In this document: piece by piece, positions 38,760 through 47,937 of the stretch
Layout: each line of letters opens with the position of its first letter
Position numbering within the stretch: the stretch's first letter is position 1
NCBI GenBank assembly: GCA_963664435.2
Contig: CAXXKM010000001.1
Span: 224,001 to 288,000, forward strand
From: Longimicrobiales bacterium
GTDB taxonomy: Bacteria > Gemmatimonadota > Gemmatimonadetes > Longimicrobiales > Gaopeijiaceae
DNA length: 64,000 nt
Reading direction: 5' to 3'
Notes under the pieces: model-generated
Databases searched by the model: none
What the model was told of the DNA's origin: nothing
What the model saw: only the letters and a program-made list of their open reading frames with translations
Program-made: the position numbers and the translations under genes

Positions 38760-38824
38760 CTCCTCATGCCATCAGGCTCCTCATGCCGCAGGCCTCCCCT
38801 CATCCCATCAGACTCCTCATCAGA
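38760..38824. repeat. Degenerate short tandem repeat (CTCCTCAT core, about 4 units)
   Basis: ctcctcatgccatcagg / ctcctcatgccgcagg / cctcccctcatcccatcaga / ctcctcatcaga; copies the 3' end of the upstream gene. Confidence 0.7.
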
Positions 38825-39387
38825 TTGCTCAGCGCCAGGTAGTCTCCGGACTCGGGCCGCTGGAAGACAAGTCCGCGCCGGACCAGCGATTCCAGAGTCG
38901 TGCGATCGACCTCGTCCGGAAGTTGCGCCGGGACCTCTCCCCGTGAAAGGGCGCCCCGCTCCTCCAGCGAACGCCAGACCCGGGCATCGGCGTCGCTCCG
39001 AACGCCCACCAGCCGGCACCGTCCCCCCGGGGTTTCCGCCACGGCGGCAAGCCGATGGCGTTCGAGAACGGCCTGGATCGGTTCCAGGTGCAGGTCGCTC
39101 ACGCCGCGAAAGATGAAGAAGGCGCGCGTGGCTTCCTCCGGCGGCTGGTAGTGCAGGAGGAGCTTCGCCACGACCTCGTCCGCGCACGAGAAATCCAGCA
39201 CGTGAACCTCCGAGAAGTCGATGACCGAGAGCGCCATCTCTCCCGCGCTCGCGAGCTGGCTCTCAATGGCCATCCGCACCGCGCGCCCCGTGGGCCGGGT
39301 CACCAGGTGCGCGTAGAGCGACGCCACCTGGCGCTCAACCAGGCGACGGAGGTCGATCGCCACCGGATCGACGCCGAATCCGTTCAT
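38800..39387 (-). CDS. STAS-like domain protein with a possible C-terminal winged helix
   Basis: LVTRPTGRAVR, IDFSEVHVLDFSCADEVVAKL; ATGA-coupled to the upstream ATPase gene. Confidence 0.7.
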   Translation of the reverse strand: MNGFGVDPVAIDLRRLVERQVASLYAHLVTRPTGRAVRMAIESQLASAGEMALSVIDFSEVHVLDFSCADEVVAKLLLHYQPPEEATRAFFIFRGVSDLHLEPIQAVLERHRLAAVAETPGGRCRLVGVRSDADARVWRSLEERGALSRGEVPAQLPDEVDRTTLESLVRRGLVFQRPESGDYLALSNLMRSLMG

Positions 39388-40310
39388 GAAGCCGGCCCCG
39401 GGTCCGTCATGCGGCTCTTCTCCTTGCCCCGCTCTTTCGCGGGCAGAACGATGTTGATCTGGGCGCCCGGAAAGCGGGCCAGCCCCTGCTCCAGCGCGGG
39501 GGTGTCGTCCCAGTCCGGCACGTCGGCGATGCGCGCGGTGCCGCTACGGATGGAGATGAGCCCATCCCAGCGCCGCACCTGCCTGCGGATCTGCTGAATA
39601 CCCTGGCCCCTGCCGGAGTCCTGAAAGCGGGTGACGCCGTGCAGGAAGGCTGCCTCCAGCGCCGTGCCGTCCCCCCATCGCTTTCCGTAGCTGCCGGCGT
39701 GCTCCGCGGCCAGCGATTCGCGGAAGCCGCGCCCCAGGTCGGACACGGCGATCACCAGCATCCAGCGCTCCCGGCGCTTCGCCCAGTAGTAGGCCTGCGC
39801 GGCCACCCATCCCGGGGCCTCCGCGTGTTCGATGATGTTCTGGCATACCTCCGAGAGCACGACCGAGAACTGGACGACCGTCACCAGCGGGTATCCCAGA
39901 GTGCGGGTGAGGATGGTCCCCGCGCGCGACTGTACGCGATCCACGACGGCATGCACATCGCTGTTGGTCGTCACCGGAGTGATCTCGAGCAGCACGTCGG
40001 AGCTCGCGGCGAACTCGCGCGGACGCCGGGCCTGCATCGAGAAGAAGCGCCGAGCCTGTTCGAAGAAGCGGATGCGCGCCAGGTATCCGAGGACCTTCGT
40101 CTGCCGGGGAAGCCGCAGATGGGGCGCCTGCCCCAGCCTGCGCTTCAGGAGCGCGCCCGCGCTCAGGAGGCCGACAAGGCCCTGCGGGTCGACGAAGCGA
40201 AGATAGCCCGCGTCGAAGAGCGCCTTGCCTTCGGCGACCTGGGCGCATTGCTGGAAGATGCTGTCGACGGTGGAGTAGTCCAGCGATGAGGGCACGCGGA
40301 TTACATGCAC
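39384..40310 (-). CDS. STAS-like plus histidine-kinase-like ATPase (HATPase_c) protein
   Basis: FDAGYLRFVDPQGLVGL (STAS-like); SEVCQNIIEHA (N box), SDLGRG (G1), GRGQGI (G2); no phosphoacceptor H-box evident. Confidence 0.8.
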   Translation of the reverse strand: MHVIRVPSSLDYSTVDSIFQQCAQVAEGKALFDAGYLRFVDPQGLVGLLSAGALLKRRLGQAPHLRLPRQTKVLGYLARIRFFEQARRFFSMQARRPREFAASSDVLLEITPVTTNSDVHAVVDRVQSRAGTILTRTLGYPLVTVVQFSVVLSEVCQNIIEHAEAPGWVAAQAYYWAKRRERWMLVIAVSDLGRGFRESLAAEHAGSYGKRWGDGTALEAAFLHGVTRFQDSGRGQGIQQIRRQVRRWDGLISIRSGTARIADVPDWDDTPALEQGLARFPGAQINIVLPAKERGKEKSRMTDPGPAS

Positions 40311-44249: not shown

Positions 44250-45293
44250 TCAGGCCCGGCCGCGCAGCACGCGCCGCATCATCTCGAGCGCGCGCTCCAC
44301 GTCGGAGGTGGATATGTCCCGGTGGGTGACGGCCCGAATCCCGGCCCGGCCCTGGGGAAGCAGATGAAGCCCGCGGGCGTGGCACCGGGTGGCGAAGGCG
44401 CCCGCCGGCATCGCCGATACCCGAAACCGCACGAGGTTCGACTGTGGCACGCCGGGGGCAGCCTCCAGGCCGTCGATGCCGGCGATGCCGCGCGCCAGGG
44501 CGCGGGCGTGGGCGATGTCGGCCGGCAAGCCGTCGCGGTGGTGTTCCAGCGCATGCAGGGCGGCCGCGGCGAGGATGCCCGCCTGGCGGAAGCCGCCGCC
44601 GAATTGCTGCTTGAAGCGGCGCGCCCGCGCCACCAGCTCCTCCGAGCCCGCCAGAGCGGAGCCCACGGGAGCTCCGAGGCCCTTGCTGAAACAGACGTTC
44701 ACGGTATCGAAGGGCGCGGCGTAACGAGCCTCCGGGACCCCGGAGGCGGCCGTGGCGTGCCAGAGGCGGGCGCCATCGAGGTGGGTGGCGAGGCCGTGGC
44801 GGCGGGCGGCGGCGCATACCTCCTCGACCTGGCCGAGCGGCCACACGGTCCCCCCACCCCCGTTGTGGGTGTTCTCCACGCACAGCAGCCGGGGCGGCGA
44901 TTCCAGGTGGATCGGATTGAAGGGATGCTCGGGCTCCATGGCGTCCTCCACATCGGCTGCGGCAAAGAGCCCGCCCCTGCCGGGAAGGGGCTTCATGGAC
45001 ACCCCGCTGAGCGCGGCGGGAGCACCCGACTCGCTGCGCACGATATGGGCGCTTCGGTCGATCAGGACGAGGTCGCCGGGCTCGGTGTGGGCACGCACCC
45101 CGATCTGGTTGGACATCGTGCCCGTGGGCACGAACACCGCGGCCTCCTTGCCCAGCAGTTCGGCGGTGCGCGCCTCCAGCGCGTTCACGGTGGGATCGTC
45201 GCCGTACACGTCGTCGCCCACCGGGGCGGCGGCGATGGCTTCCCGCATGGCCGGGGTGGGCAGGGTCACGGTGTCGCTGCGGAGATCGATCAT
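44250..45293 (-). CDS. ltaE: Low-specificity L-threonine aldolase
   Basis: MIDLRSDTVT, VGDDVYGDDPT, HLDGARL, CFSKGLGAPVGS. Confidence 0.93.
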   Translation of the reverse strand: MIDLRSDTVTLPTPAMREAIAAAPVGDDVYGDDPTVNALEARTAELLGKEAAVFVPTGTMSNQIGVRAHTEPGDLVLIDRSAHIVRSESGAPAALSGVSMKPLPGRGGLFAAADVEDAMEPEHPFNPIHLESPPRLLCVENTHNGGGGTVWPLGQVEEVCAAARRHGLATHLDGARLWHATAASGVPEARYAAPFDTVNVCFSKGLGAPVGSALAGSEELVARARRFKQQFGGGFRQAGILAAAALHALEHHRDGLPADIAHARALARGIAGIDGLEAAPGVPQSNLVRFRVSAMPAGAFATRCHARGLHLLPQGRAGIRAVTHRDISTSDVERALEMMRRVLRGRA

Positions 45294-45330
45294 GATCCGC
45301 GATACACCGGGCGGGGCGGGTGGTGTCGCA

Positions 45331-46359
45331 TCACCGCCGCTGCCAGGGAGCGCCGAGCCCGCCATCGGGCGAGTCGCCGGTCCGCGCCAGCGTCACCCCG
45401 GCGACCTGCCGCCGCAGCGCGCGGATCCCGGCTGGACCGACGCGGCAGCACCCGCCGACGCCGGCCGCCCCGCGCGCAATCCAGTCGCGCGCTTCGAGGG
45501 TCGGCTCGCCGGCCCCCCGGGCGCCGTTCGCGGGCCAGTGCCACGCCCCGGTGTGGGCGTCGTACACCTCCCCGGAGTTGGGATAGACGATCACGGGAAG
45601 ATCGGTCTCGCCCCGGATTCGTCCGATGAGTTCTCCGACATGTGCGGGCGCGACGCAGTTCACCCCCACCGCGGCCACCCTTTCCGCCCGATCGCAGAGG
45701 CGCGCGACCGCCTCGACCGGCGTGCCGTCCCAGAGGCGGGCGCCATCCGCGCAGCAGAAGCTCACCCACGCCCACGCTTCCGGCGTTTCGGCCAGAATCC
45801 CGAGCACGACTTCGACCTCGAGACCCGAGGGGATGGTTTCGCAGAGGATCAGGTCGGCGTCCGAGCGCGCGAAGAGCCGGAAGCGGCGCCGGTGGAACTC
45901 GTCCAGCACCCGGGGTTCGACGCCGTACCGGCCATCGTATTCCGACCCGTCCGCGAGGTACGCCCCGTATGGCCCCGCACTGGCCGCCACCAGCGGGCGC
46001 AGCCGGCCGGTTCGGCCAGCCTGTTCCGCCCGGAACTCGTCGCGCGCCTCGATGGCCAGCGCGACCGAGAGTTCCAGGAAGCCCGCCGCATCGCCATCGC
46101 CGTAGCCCTGCGCGCGGAAGCCGGGGAAGCTCGCCTGGTAGCTGGCGGTGGAAATGCAGTCCGCGCCCGCCGCGAGGTATTCGGCGTGGGTGCGCCGGAT
46201 GGCGCCGGGGTTCGATACGAGCAGTTCGGCGGACCAGAGCCGGGTGTCGAGGCGGTGCCCGCGGGCTTCGAGCCCCGTCGCCAGACCCCCGTCGGCGATC
46301 AGCGGCCTCCCGCGGGCGAAGAACGGCGCGAGAGGACCGGTCCGCTCCGGCCGGCTCAT
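45331..46359 (-). CDS. mmuM: Homocysteine S-methyltransferase
   Basis: DGGLATGLE, LWSA, TASYQAS, GPYGAYLADGSEY, GVNC, YPNSGE, GGCCR. Confidence 0.93.
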   Translation of the reverse strand: MSRPERTGPLAPFFARGRPLIADGGLATGLEARGHRLDTRLWSAELLVSNPGAIRRTHAEYLAAGADCISTASYQASFPGFRAQGYGDGDAAGFLELSVALAIEARDEFRAEQAGRTGRLRPLVAASAGPYGAYLADGSEYDGRYGVEPRVLDEFHRRRFRLFARSDADLILCETIPSGLEVEVVLGILAETPEAWAWVSFCCADGARLWDGTPVEAVARLCDRAERVAAVGVNCVAPAHVGELIGRIRGETDLPVIVYPNSGEVYDAHTGAWHWPANGARGAGEPTLEARDWIARGAAGVGGCCRVGPAGIRALRRQVAGVTLARTGDSPDGGLGAPWQRR

Positions 46360-46718
46360 CCCTCCGGGCTGAGCAGCGTCGCCAGCATCTCCGCGTTGTA
46401 TCCCACCAGAAGCCGATCCCCGCTGCGCATCGTCGGCGCGCGCAGCTTCCCGAAACGGCTGCAGAGAAGCTTCACCAACTCCTCGTCGGCGGGCCTGTCG
46501 GCGCCAAGATCGACGTGGACGATCTTCTTCCCCCTGGCGACATGGAGGTCGCTCACGCCTTCCAGGAGGGTCAGCACTTCGTCGCCCGCGACGGGACTGC
46601 GCGTGGCGCTCTGCACTTCCCCGGTCGCGATTTCATTCTGCGCAAGAAACTCTTGCGTACGCTTGCAACTGGTTCAGCCCGGGCGGTGATACCGCCATTC
46701 AACGGACGACGTGGCCAT
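46356..46718 (-). CDS. ArsC/Spx-like thioredoxin-fold selenoprotein (U15 in UxxC), 120 aa
   Basis: GGAGGGG SD 5 nt before ATG 46718; MATSSVEWRYHRPG-UGA(46674-46676)-TSCKRTQEFL, continuing in frame into track ORF 46356..46616, which carries LRAPTMRSGDRLLVGYN (ArsC-like RP...VGF/Y). Confidence 0.85.
46641..46676 (-). promoter_or_regulatory. Candidate bacterial SECIS element
   Basis: Perfect 7-bp stem CGCAAGA-GUU-UCUUGCG; the loop starts with G, 23 nt after the UGA. Confidence 0.7.
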
Positions 46719-47208
46719 GAGATCCCCTCCGGCGGGTTTGCGGCGCGAACGGAAGAAGGTTCGGGGGGGCATGCGCCGGGATGCCCTAACCTGTTTTATC
46801 GCTTCAAGATAGCTTTACTCATCGGACAACTGTCGTGGTCCCTTGCCCGGACGAAGTCTAGCAGCCCGCAGGCCGCTGCTTCAAGGCGCTCGACCGGATC
46901 CGGGCTCGGCGACGGGCGATGGCCCGGGGGCGAGGCTTCGCCCGTGGGCGGCGCGATCCACCGGGGCGCCGGCAGGATCGAACACCGGGCCTTGCGGCGC
47001 TATCGCGCCCGTCCGATTCTTGGGGCGCATCCGGGATGCCGACGGACGCCGGGCGACGCCGGCATGTGCCAGGGCATGCTCCGTCCCCGGTGCGACGCCG
47101 CACAGGGAGACCGCTGCGACCGGGAGGACCCGTGCGACGCGGGGCAGTGCAGTGCGGGAGAGACACGCGCCCGTGCCGTGCGGGCGGGCCGAACCTGTGG
47201 AGACCAGG

Positions 47209-47937
47209 ATGACCGTTTTGCGATGCGTGGCGCTGGGATGCCTCGTGCTCCCTGCGGCCGACGCCGGCGCGCAATCCCTCGACGACGCCAGAACCGCCTT
47301 TGCGGAAGGGCGTTTTCTCGAGGCGGCGGAACTGGCCGAAGCGCTGGCGACGTCCGACGGCTACGCCCTTGGCGCGCAATCGCTCGCGATACACGCGCAC
47401 TACTTCGCGACCGAGGATGAGTGGGAGGAGTTGGTCGACCGCGCGATAGAGATGGGCGACGCGGCCATGCTCGCCGATTCGACGAACGCCGAGGCGCACT
47501 ATCAGGCCGCCCACGCACTCGGCCGATACGCTCAGGGCGTGGGTGCGATCACGGCGCTCCGCCAGGGCCTCGCGGGAAGCATCCGCGAGCGGCTCGATGC
47601 AGCGATTCGCCTCGATCCCTATCTCTGGGAAGCCAGACTGGCGCTCGGCGGATGGCACGCCGACATCGCGGCGGAAGGGTTCATCGCGCGGCGGATGTAC
47701 GGAGGGAATCGACCGGCCGCCGTCGTACTGTTCGAGCAGGCGTTGCAGATGGCGCCGGAGTCGAGGGTCGTGCTCTTCGAGTACGCCGCCCGGCTCCCCG
47801 ACCTCGACGAAGAGAACGGGGAGGAGCGAGCGCGCGAAATGCTGGACAGGGCGGCTCAACTGCCGATCGTCGATGCCTACGACGGGCTCATCCAGGAACT
47901 GGTCCTCGAGGCAATCGCGAAGCGGGAGGACGGATAA
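47209..47937 (+). CDS. Secreted alpha-helical TPR-like protein
   Basis: Signal peptide ending AGA-Q; NAEAHYQAAHALGRYAQ, AIRLDP, ALGGWHA. Confidence 0.75.
   Translation: MTVLRCVALGCLVLPAADAGAQSLDDARTAFAEGRFLEAAELAEALATSDGYALGAQSLAIHAHYFATEDEWEELVDRAIEMGDAAMLADSTNAEAHYQAAHALGRYAQGVGAITALRQGLAGSIRERLDAAIRLDPYLWEARLALGGWHADIAAEGFIARRMYGGNRPAAVVLFEQALQMAPESRVVLFEYAARLPDLDEENGEERAREMLDRAAQLPIVDAYDGLIQELVLEAIAKREDG

What the first reader, a model, noticed from the sequence alone, without database searches (positions are those of the whole stretch)
46356..46718. Hidden selenoprotein: ArsC/Spx-like UxxC redoxin with a SECIS-like hairpin, truncated by the ORF caller
Seen in sequence: the 86-aa track ORF extends upstream in frame through a single TGA (46674-46676) to an ATG at 46718 with a strong GGAGGGG SD. 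This gives MATSSVEWRYHRPG-U-TSCKRTQEFLAQ..., 120 aa. A perfect stem CGCAAGA/UCUUGCG with a G-initiated loop lies 23 nt after the UGA. Established: ArsC/Spx/YffB thioredoxin folds carry CxxC at this position, and bacterial SECIS elements sit just 3' of the UGA with a G early in the apical loop. Inference: UGA is decoded as selenocysteine and the organism has SelABCD.
Basis: partly seen in the sequence, partly recalled or inferred. Interest (0 to 1): 0.85.

Follow-up and report, generated by a model that had tools for sequence, protein, structure and literature searches.

The report
Confirmed hidden ArsC-family selenoprotein gene
This bacterial gene has an internal UGA stop codon that is very likely read as selenocysteine, giving a 120-residue protein, probably a thiol-redox enzyme, that belongs to an already catalogued but never experimentally tested selenoprotein family.

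Summary
Window 46718-46356 (-) is a 120-codon gene with one in-frame TGA at codon 15 (U-T-S-C) and a 7-bp hairpin whose GUU loop lies 23 nt downstream. The hairpin alone is not beyond chance, but comparison is decisive. 118 of 119 distinct homologous genes keep TGA. The stem shows compensatory changes and forces rare codons. The genome has selA, selB, selD, tRNA-Sec and two other selenoprotein genes. The one TGC homolog lies in a genome lacking selA and tRNA-Sec, and has lost the hairpin. The protein passes the cut-off of NCBIfam NF041106, 'ArsC family (seleno)protein', which a 2026 review lists as predicted, not verified. So it is a new member of a known kind, in a Gemmatimonadota (Longimicrobiales-like) genome. 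It lacks two of ArsC's three catalytic arginines, and its predicted insert carries a beta-hairpin where Spx is helical. A Grx/NrdH-like selenol-thiol redoxin is most likely; arsenate reductase and Spx-like regulator are weaker rivals. One extra lead: throughout this genus its stop overlaps the start of mmuM, reported to confer selenium tolerance, so read-through might gate mmuM.

The parts
46724..46730 (-). Shine-Dalgarno-like GGAGGGG, 5 nt before the ATG
   Evidence: sequence; a GGAG-type motif precedes the start in the genus genes printed
46356..46718 (-). Selenoprotein CDS, 120 aa, NF041106 family (ArsC/Spx-related thioredoxin fold)
   Evidence: 112.4 bits, cut-off 85; Pfam ArsC 28.9, cut-off 24; model pLDDT 92.4
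46674..46676 (-). In-frame UGA, codon 15, inferred selenocysteine
   Evidence: TGA in 118 of 119 distinct homologous genes, TGC in 1; Cys at this column in 48 of 150 distant representatives
46665..46676 (-). UxxC redox motif (U15-T-S-C18) at the start of helix 16-27
   Evidence: C18 in 119 of 119 and 109 of 109; aligns with Spx CxxC; secondary structure
46641..46657 (-). SECIS-type hairpin CGCAAGA-GUU-UCUUGCG, loop 23 nt after the UGA
   Evidence: 97.2% of cells paired, 3 of 7 pairs with changes on both sides, 16 such cells, 0 of 500 shuffles; rare codons TTT and CTT enforced
46509..46550 (-). Predicted beta-hairpin (residues 57-70, turn at G63) in the inserted subdomain
   Evidence: both AlphaFold2 runs; G63 in 100 of 109 rows
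46434..46442 (-). R93-A94-P95 motif, with the thioredoxin-fold proline; A94 stands where ArsC has Arg94 and Spx has Arg92
46356..46359 (-). ATGA overlap: true stop of the selenoprotein gene and start of mmuM; no SECIS-type hairpin follows
   Evidence: 20 of 20 distinct genes with mmuM in the locus; 0 of 72 terminal TGAs have the strict hairpin
45331..46359 (-). mmuM, homocysteine S-methyltransferase, 342 aa; adjacent only in the close (genus-level) relatives
   Evidence: NF007020 339.5 bits, cut-off 215
46356..46616 (-). Truncated 86-aa ORF as called by standard software; lacks the active site
   Evidence: most of the 60 database homologs are such 67-102 aa fragments

Best explanation
The gene encodes a 120-residue protein of the known NF041106 family whose codon-15 UGA is very likely decoded as selenocysteine, and the product is probably a small glutaredoxin/NrdH-like redox protein that cycles its U15-C18 pair between selenol-thiol and selenenylsulfide. 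Shown: the reading frame, conserved TGA, covarying hairpin, complete Sec machinery and family membership. Inferred from established bacterial Sec decoding: SelB carrying Sec-tRNA binds the GUU-loop hairpin through its winged-helix domain and inserts Sec at UGA15; UGA121 has no such hairpin and terminates. Inferred from fold and motif: Sec15 at the start of helix 1 is the nucleophile, Cys18 resolves, and conserved basic residues (R12, K/R20, K/R62, R93) and the beta-hairpin subdomain would bind an unidentified partner or anionic substrate. Sec decoding is about 0.97 likely; the redoxin role about 0.65-0.7.
Against: No direct evidence of Sec insertion or of activity. The hairpin alone is unremarkable; its isolated energy is -7.4 kcal/mol, at the edge of the published -7.5 limit (-8.5 for the 41-nt window). 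The strict hairpin rule was set after seeing these hairpins. The covariation set used 51 of 61 distinct rows (9 rows of genus g60, with a different hairpin, and the TGC row left out); two of its five measures were not beyond shuffles (41 and 70 of 500), and kin are not independent. The closest solved relatives by sequence are Spx regulators, not enzymes. No conserved partner gene points to a substrate.
Confidence: 0.68

Rival explanations
1. A selenocysteine version of the Spx redox switch: the U15-C18 bond controls binding to the RNA polymerase alpha C-terminal domain and so regulates transcription.
Against: Far below the Spx cut-offs (38.3 against 123; 32.2 against 75.05). G54 is kept in only 54 of 109 family rows. 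Spx Arg92 is Ala in 118 of 119. The segment holding R60 is helix-adjacent in Spx but a beta-hairpin in both models, and superposition reaches 4.6-5.0 A over 94-98 residues.
Confidence: 0.12
2. A glutaredoxin-type arsenate reductase, as the family name suggests, with Sec replacing Cys12.
For: Pfam ArsC over cut-off. H11-x3-U15 mirrors ArsC's HX3CX3R. K/R62 aligns with Arg60. Invariant R12 and R93 could rebuild an anion site.
Against: Arg94 is Ala and Arg107 is Tyr/Phe; the last motif position is K19. TIGR00014 was not hit at E 0.1. No acr3 match in this 96% complete genome, which has 3 LMWPc-family genes. No ars gene among 134 neighbour ORFs at E 1e-25 (small regulators could be missed at that threshold). 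It has a resolving Cys18, whereas the Sec-ArsC proper is UxxS.
Confidence: 0.1
3. The U/C-x-x-C pair binds a metal or Fe-S centre, or carries sulfur or selenium, instead of catalysing thiol-disulfide exchange.
For: Only analogy (recalled: some CxxC thioredoxin-fold proteins bind metals) and the lack of an assigned substrate.
Against: No further conserved Cys or His ligands: C86 is kept in 20 of 119, and neighbours show no recurring metal or Fe-S genes.
Confidence: 0.08
4. A nonsense pseudogene, a real 86-aa protein, or UGA read as Trp or Gly under another genetic code.
For: ORF callers give the 86-aa form; at least 11 of 150 database representatives show W at this site (read), most likely from gene calling under another code.
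Against: TGA at the same codon in 118 of 119 genes across three phyla by record title, with the upstream 14 codons conserved. The column is Cys wherever it is a sense codon in DNA seen here. 72 of 119 genes also end in TGA. The Sec machinery tracks the TGA.
Confidence: 0.02

Closest known systems
NCBIfam NF041106 ArsC_rel_Se_1, 'ArsC family (seleno)protein' ('Arsenate reductase-like protein', UxxC, in PMC13188914 Table 1, under 'Predicted with high confidence'; cited there to the GOS study PMC2398784, whose Table 2 has 'Arsenate reductase 2', cd03032, UxxC, 42 sequences)
   Same: Over the cut-off across profile positions 1-106 of 107; one Sec in a UxxC motif; Cys homologs exist.
   Different: Nothing that removes it from the family. 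New here: the lineage, covariation support for its SECIS, a natural Sec-to-Cys case, and the mmuM overlap.
Spx / MgsR (NF002459, TIGR01617; PDB 1z3e, 3gfk, 3ihq, 7f75)
   Same: Thioredoxin core with an inserted subdomain, CxxC at the same place, about 27% identity in the structural alignment, G52 and R60 positions alignable.
   Different: Sec for the first Cys; Ala for Arg92; predicted beta-hairpin in the insert; scores about a third to a half of the cut-offs; polymerase binding untested.
E. coli R773 ArsC (TIGR00014; PDB 1i9d, 1jzw) and YffB (1rw1, 2kok)
   Same: Same superfamily; His-x3-nucleophile; basic residue at the Arg60 position.
   Different: Arg94 and Arg107 absent; second Cys present; no ars operon context.
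NrdH-redoxin and dithiol glutaredoxins (1h75, 3zij, 7c10)
   Same: The core superposes at 2.1-2.8 A over 70-76 residues; two-residue redox pair and fold proline.
   Different: About 45 extra residues forming an alpha/beta subdomain; Sec nucleophile; no nrd genes among the neighbours scanned.
Bacterial SECIS element (model in PMC13188914 Fig. 2A)
   Same: 3-nt loop, 7-bp stem, G first in the loop, 23-nt spacing; A-GUU-U fits the N1-G[G/U]-N-N2 pattern.
   Different: Minimal loop and only a weak lower stem; genus g60 homologs use another hairpin (GCACC-CGUGC-GGUGY) at 18 nt.

Membership tests
NF041106 ArsC family (seleno)protein | HMM score above the curated cut-off | tested here: met
   112.4 against 85 bits; 104.9 in the genome search
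NF041106 ArsC family (seleno)protein | UxxC or CxxC motif near the N-terminus | tested here: met
   U15-T-S-C18; motif per PMC13188914
Bacterial selenoprotein | In-frame UGA aligned to Cys in homologs | tested here: met
   118 TGA and 1 TGC of 119 genes; 48 of 150 representatives CxxC
Bacterial selenoprotein | SECIS right after the UGA: loop 3-9 nt, stem 4-16 bp, G in the first two loop positions, spacing 16-37 nt | tested here: met
   3-nt loop, 7 bp, G first, 23 nt; covariation. bSECISearch itself was not available
Bacterial selenoprotein | SECIS energy at or below -7.5 kcal/mol | tested here: inconclusive
   -7.4 for the isolated stem-loop; -8.5 and -8.6 for 41- and 44-nt windows
Bacterial selenoprotein | selA, selB, selC and selD in the genome | tested here: met
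Bacterial selenoprotein | Selenium incorporated at the UGA | not testable with these tools
   needs 75Se labelling or mass spectrometry
Glutaredoxin-coupled arsenate reductase ArsC (TIGR00014) | HMM cut-off | tested here: not met
   TIGR00014 not listed at E up to 0.1
Glutaredoxin-coupled arsenate reductase ArsC (TIGR00014) | Arg60, Arg94, Arg107 triad (PMC3169414) | tested here: not met
   via a bridging ArsC-like protein: R62, A94, Y107, so 1 of 3
Glutaredoxin-coupled arsenate reductase ArsC (TIGR00014) | HX3CX3R motif | tested here: inconclusive
   H11-x3-U15-x3-K19, with R20 one place later
Glutaredoxin-coupled arsenate reductase ArsC (TIGR00014) | Arsenate reduction | not testable with these tools
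   needs an assay
Spx / MgsR regulators | HMM cut-offs NF002459 and TIGR01617 | tested here: not met
   38.3 against 123; 32.2 against 75.05
Spx / MgsR regulators | CxxC redox switch | tested here: met
   as UxxC, aligned to Spx C10/C13
Spx / MgsR regulators | Gly52 and Arg60 | tested here: inconclusive
   G54 in 108 of 119 close and 54 of 109 wide rows; K/R62 in 100 of 109; but on a predicted beta-hairpin
Spx / MgsR regulators | Arg92 before the proline | tested here: not met
   A94 in 118 of 119
Spx / MgsR regulators | Binding to RNA polymerase alpha-CTD | not tested

The most novel reading that the evidence does not exclude
In this genus the selenoprotein gene doubles as a selenium sensor. 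Only ribosomes that insert Sec at UGA15 reach the ATGA overlap and reinitiate on mmuM, whose SD-like motif is too close (1-2 nt) to work alone. The thiol/selenol methyltransferase reported to give selenium tolerance would then be made only when selenium is plentiful: a Sec-gated detoxification switch built from translational coupling. The overlap is in 20 of 20 close relatives and 0 of 99 others, but such overlaps are common here (177 of 1191 close pairs) and kin are not independent.
Probability: 0.15. Interest if true: 0.72.

Novelty: new member of a known kind. Interest (0 to 1): 0.36.

Why it matters
It corrects an annotation: standard callers cut off the active site, and most database copies of this family are fragments. 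The family is catalogued but has no experimental test, and its name probably misleads, since the ArsC arginines are missing. This set gives ready test material: a minimal covarying SECIS, and a sister genome that has lost the Sec machinery and carries Cys. It also shows selA in 241 of 301 sampled Gemmatimonadota genomes, a phylum for which my three literature searches listed no paper on its selenoproteome. If the mmuM coupling is regulatory, it would be a selenium-sensing switch for a neighbouring gene, beyond the self-control reported for fdhF in Treponema primitia.

Full report
Observation. The minus strand reads ATG at 46718, 14 codons, TGA at 46676-46674, then 105 codons to TGA at 46358-46356. 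GGAGGGG lies 5 nt before the ATG. A standard caller reports only the 86-aa GTG ORF. The hairpin CGCAAGA-GUU-UCUUGCG spans 46657-46641; its stem begins 16 nt and its loop 23 nt after the UGA. Contigs from 4 public runs show no differing letter (2 studies, possibly including the source).

Chance. The hairpin alone proves nothing. Its z-scores are +0.83, -1.01 and -0.34, and a loose bSECIS rule passes 1135 of 4017 coding-like TGA sites in this 68% GC genome. The case rests on comparison.

Conservation of the UGA. All 18 other genomes of the genus and one more of the family keep TGA at codon 15. NF041106 was found in 58 of 301 phylum genomes, 57 with one TGA inside the match. I took DNA for 30 plus 20 of these 58, 20 loci, and the best 80 of 163 loci. 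These 149 loci collapse to 119 distinct genes: 118 TGA and 1 TGC (one locus was re-anchored by hand). Record titles of the 80 are 62 Gemmatimonadota or Longimicrobiales, 13 Acidobacteriota-type, 4 Gammaproteobacteria and 1 Latescibacterota. The closest, at 86-89% identity, are mostly Gemmatimonadota, so the window most likely comes from that phylum (inference). Among 150 distant protein representatives, 48 have CxxC and 33 begin just after the site, as truncated Sec forms would; their DNA was not seen.

Machinery. The genome has selA, selB over its cut-off with both winged-helix domains, selD (Cys form) and tRNA-Sec with anticodon UCA. It has two more selenoprotein genes with TGA and hairpin: a formate dehydrogenase alpha subunit and an AhpC/TSA-family protein. 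selA was found in 241 of 301 phylum genomes (the tally includes G189, flagged unpublished), including all 57 TGA carriers. Since 80% of the sample has selA, that overlap alone is modest evidence. The sharper test is genus g88: G179 has TGC, no hairpin, and no selA or tRNA-Sec match (98% complete), while G180, G217 and G224 have TGA, hairpin, selA and tRNA-Sec. A threonine dehydratase neighbour shared by all four supports orthology. This is a single event.

SECIS. The hairpin meets the model quoted in PMC13188914 for loop, stem, loop G and spacing; its energy is borderline (-7.4 isolated; -8.5 in context). On 51 of 61 distinct rows (9 rows of genus g60, which use a different hairpin, and the TGC row were left out), 97.2% of cells pair, 3 of 7 pairs have changes on both sides, and 16 cells do; no shuffle of 500 reached the pairing, cell or covariation values, and every slid control was lower. 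The number of covarying pairs (41 of 500) and of pair types (70 of 500) were not beyond shuffles. RNAalifold found 6 of the 7 pairs unaided. The stem forces rare codons: TTT for Phe in 101 of 107 against 12 of 186 elsewhere, and CTT for Leu in 101 of 109 against 86 of 1378, over 108 genes. A strict hairpin rule, set after seeing these cases, is met by 117 of 118 internal TGAs, 0 of 72 terminal TGAs and 47 of 969 background sites. That explains how one mRNA can read its first UGA as Sec and its second as stop.

Mechanism. Shown: frame, conserved UGA, selected hairpin, machinery, family. Inferred: SelB-dependent Sec insertion (about 0.97). Inferred: a selenol-thiol redoxin of Grx/NrdH type with an unknown partner (0.68), ahead of an Spx-like regulator (0.12), arsenate reductase (0.10), metal or chalcogen carrier (0.08) and artefact (0.02).

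The mmuM overlap. The stop overlaps the ATG of a homocysteine S-methyltransferase gene in 20 of 20 distinct genes that have mmuM in the locus, all close relatives, and none of the other 99 loci has mmuM in the fetched flank (97 had at least 900 nt downstream). In other genera of the family mmuM lies elsewhere. PMC4278250 states that MmuM methylates selenocysteine and gives selenium tolerance. The only SD-like motif is 1-2 nt before that ATG, so initiation probably needs coupling, which would make MmuM depend on Sec read-through. Against this: ATGA overlaps make up 177 of 1191 close pairs in a crude count, 89 of those 177 also lack a well-spaced motif, and one ancestral rearrangement explains all 20. 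A precedent for selenium control through coupling exists for fdhF itself (PMC3892789). One search for such control of a downstream gene listed 7 papers, none on this arrangement by title or abstract start. I give it 0.15 as a selected switch.

What is known. PMC13188914 Table 1 lists NF041106 as 'Arsenate reductase-like protein', UxxC, predicted and not verified. PMC2398784 counted 42 'Arsenate reductase 2' UxxC selenoproteins, and PMC1794560 lists ArsC-like selenoproteins in two Deltaproteobacteria. Searches for selenoprotein with Gemmatimonadota (3 papers), Longimicrobiales with selenocysteine (1) and selenoproteome with sponge symbiont (0) listed nothing on this lineage's selenoproteins; I saw only listings. 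What I saw of each paper: passages for PMC1794560, PMC2398784, PMC2801614, PMC3169414 and PMC4278250; passages plus section 7 part 1 of 3 for PMC13188914; abstract and outline for PMC3892789; a term count for PMC5029168; nothing of PMC12013261 or PMC9879109. No supplements were read; those of the GOS paper and the review could show whether Gemmatimonadota members were already listed.

Verdict. A real and well-supported selenoprotein gene, a new member of a known, untested family. Interest 0.36.

Noticed in passing
G000:C3:989892-992603 (+), locus L178: Formate dehydrogenase alpha subunit with in-frame TGA (SRA-U-HAP) and hairpin GTCGCC-GGTCT-GGCGGC 18 nt on; a second selenoprotein gene.
   Followed up: partly
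G000:C1:860863-861609 (+), locus L182: AhpC/TSA-family protein with GHW-U-PWC and a 7-bp hairpin TCAGCTC-GGG-GAGCTGA 21 nt on; a third selenoprotein gene, with a hydrophobic N-terminal segment.
   Followed up: partly
G000:C1:1271745-1272659 (-), locus L010: selD has Cys, not Sec, and sits in an open frame of 847 codons, so it may be fused to an N-terminal domain.
   Followed up: no
301 genomes of the phylum: selA in 241 of 301 sampled Gemmatimonadota genomes, but 0 of 4 in family f2 and 2 of 13 in f10; Sec use looks widespread and patchy in this phylum.
   Followed up: partly
L078-L087 (genus g60): A shorter 107-108 aa form of the family keeps TGA but uses a different hairpin, mostly GCACC-CGUGC-GGUGY at 18 nt; SECIS turnover within one family.
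   Followed up: partly
L132, L141, L156-L176: Acidobacteriota- and Latescibacterota-titled records carry the gene at 52-60% identity with nearly the same hairpin; possible transfer of gene with SECIS, no tree built.
   Followed up: no
protein databases: The family is stored mostly as fragments; at least 11 of 150 representatives have W and one homolog has G at the Sec site, probably from gene calling under other codes.
   Followed up: partly
window 44250-45365 (-): PLP-dependent aldolase after mmuM, scoring over the cut-off of NF041359 (GntG family) and near low-specificity L-threonine aldolase; followed by lepA.
   Followed up: no
window 46843-47937 (+): Divergent ORF with a weak TPR match and no family over cut-off; shares the 124-nt gap upstream of the selenoprotein gene.
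   Followed up: no
window 38800-40310 (-): Overlapping pair: a 308-aa ORF with weak STAS and HATPase matches and a 195-aa ORF with no Pfam match; resembles an anti-sigma or partner-switch module.
   Followed up: no
G000:C3:547304-547444 (+) and C3:1173966-1174106 (-); C2:132966-133343 (-) and C3:67394-67771 (+): Identical candidate rows at two places each in the TGA screen, pointing to repeated elements in the genome.
   Followed up: no
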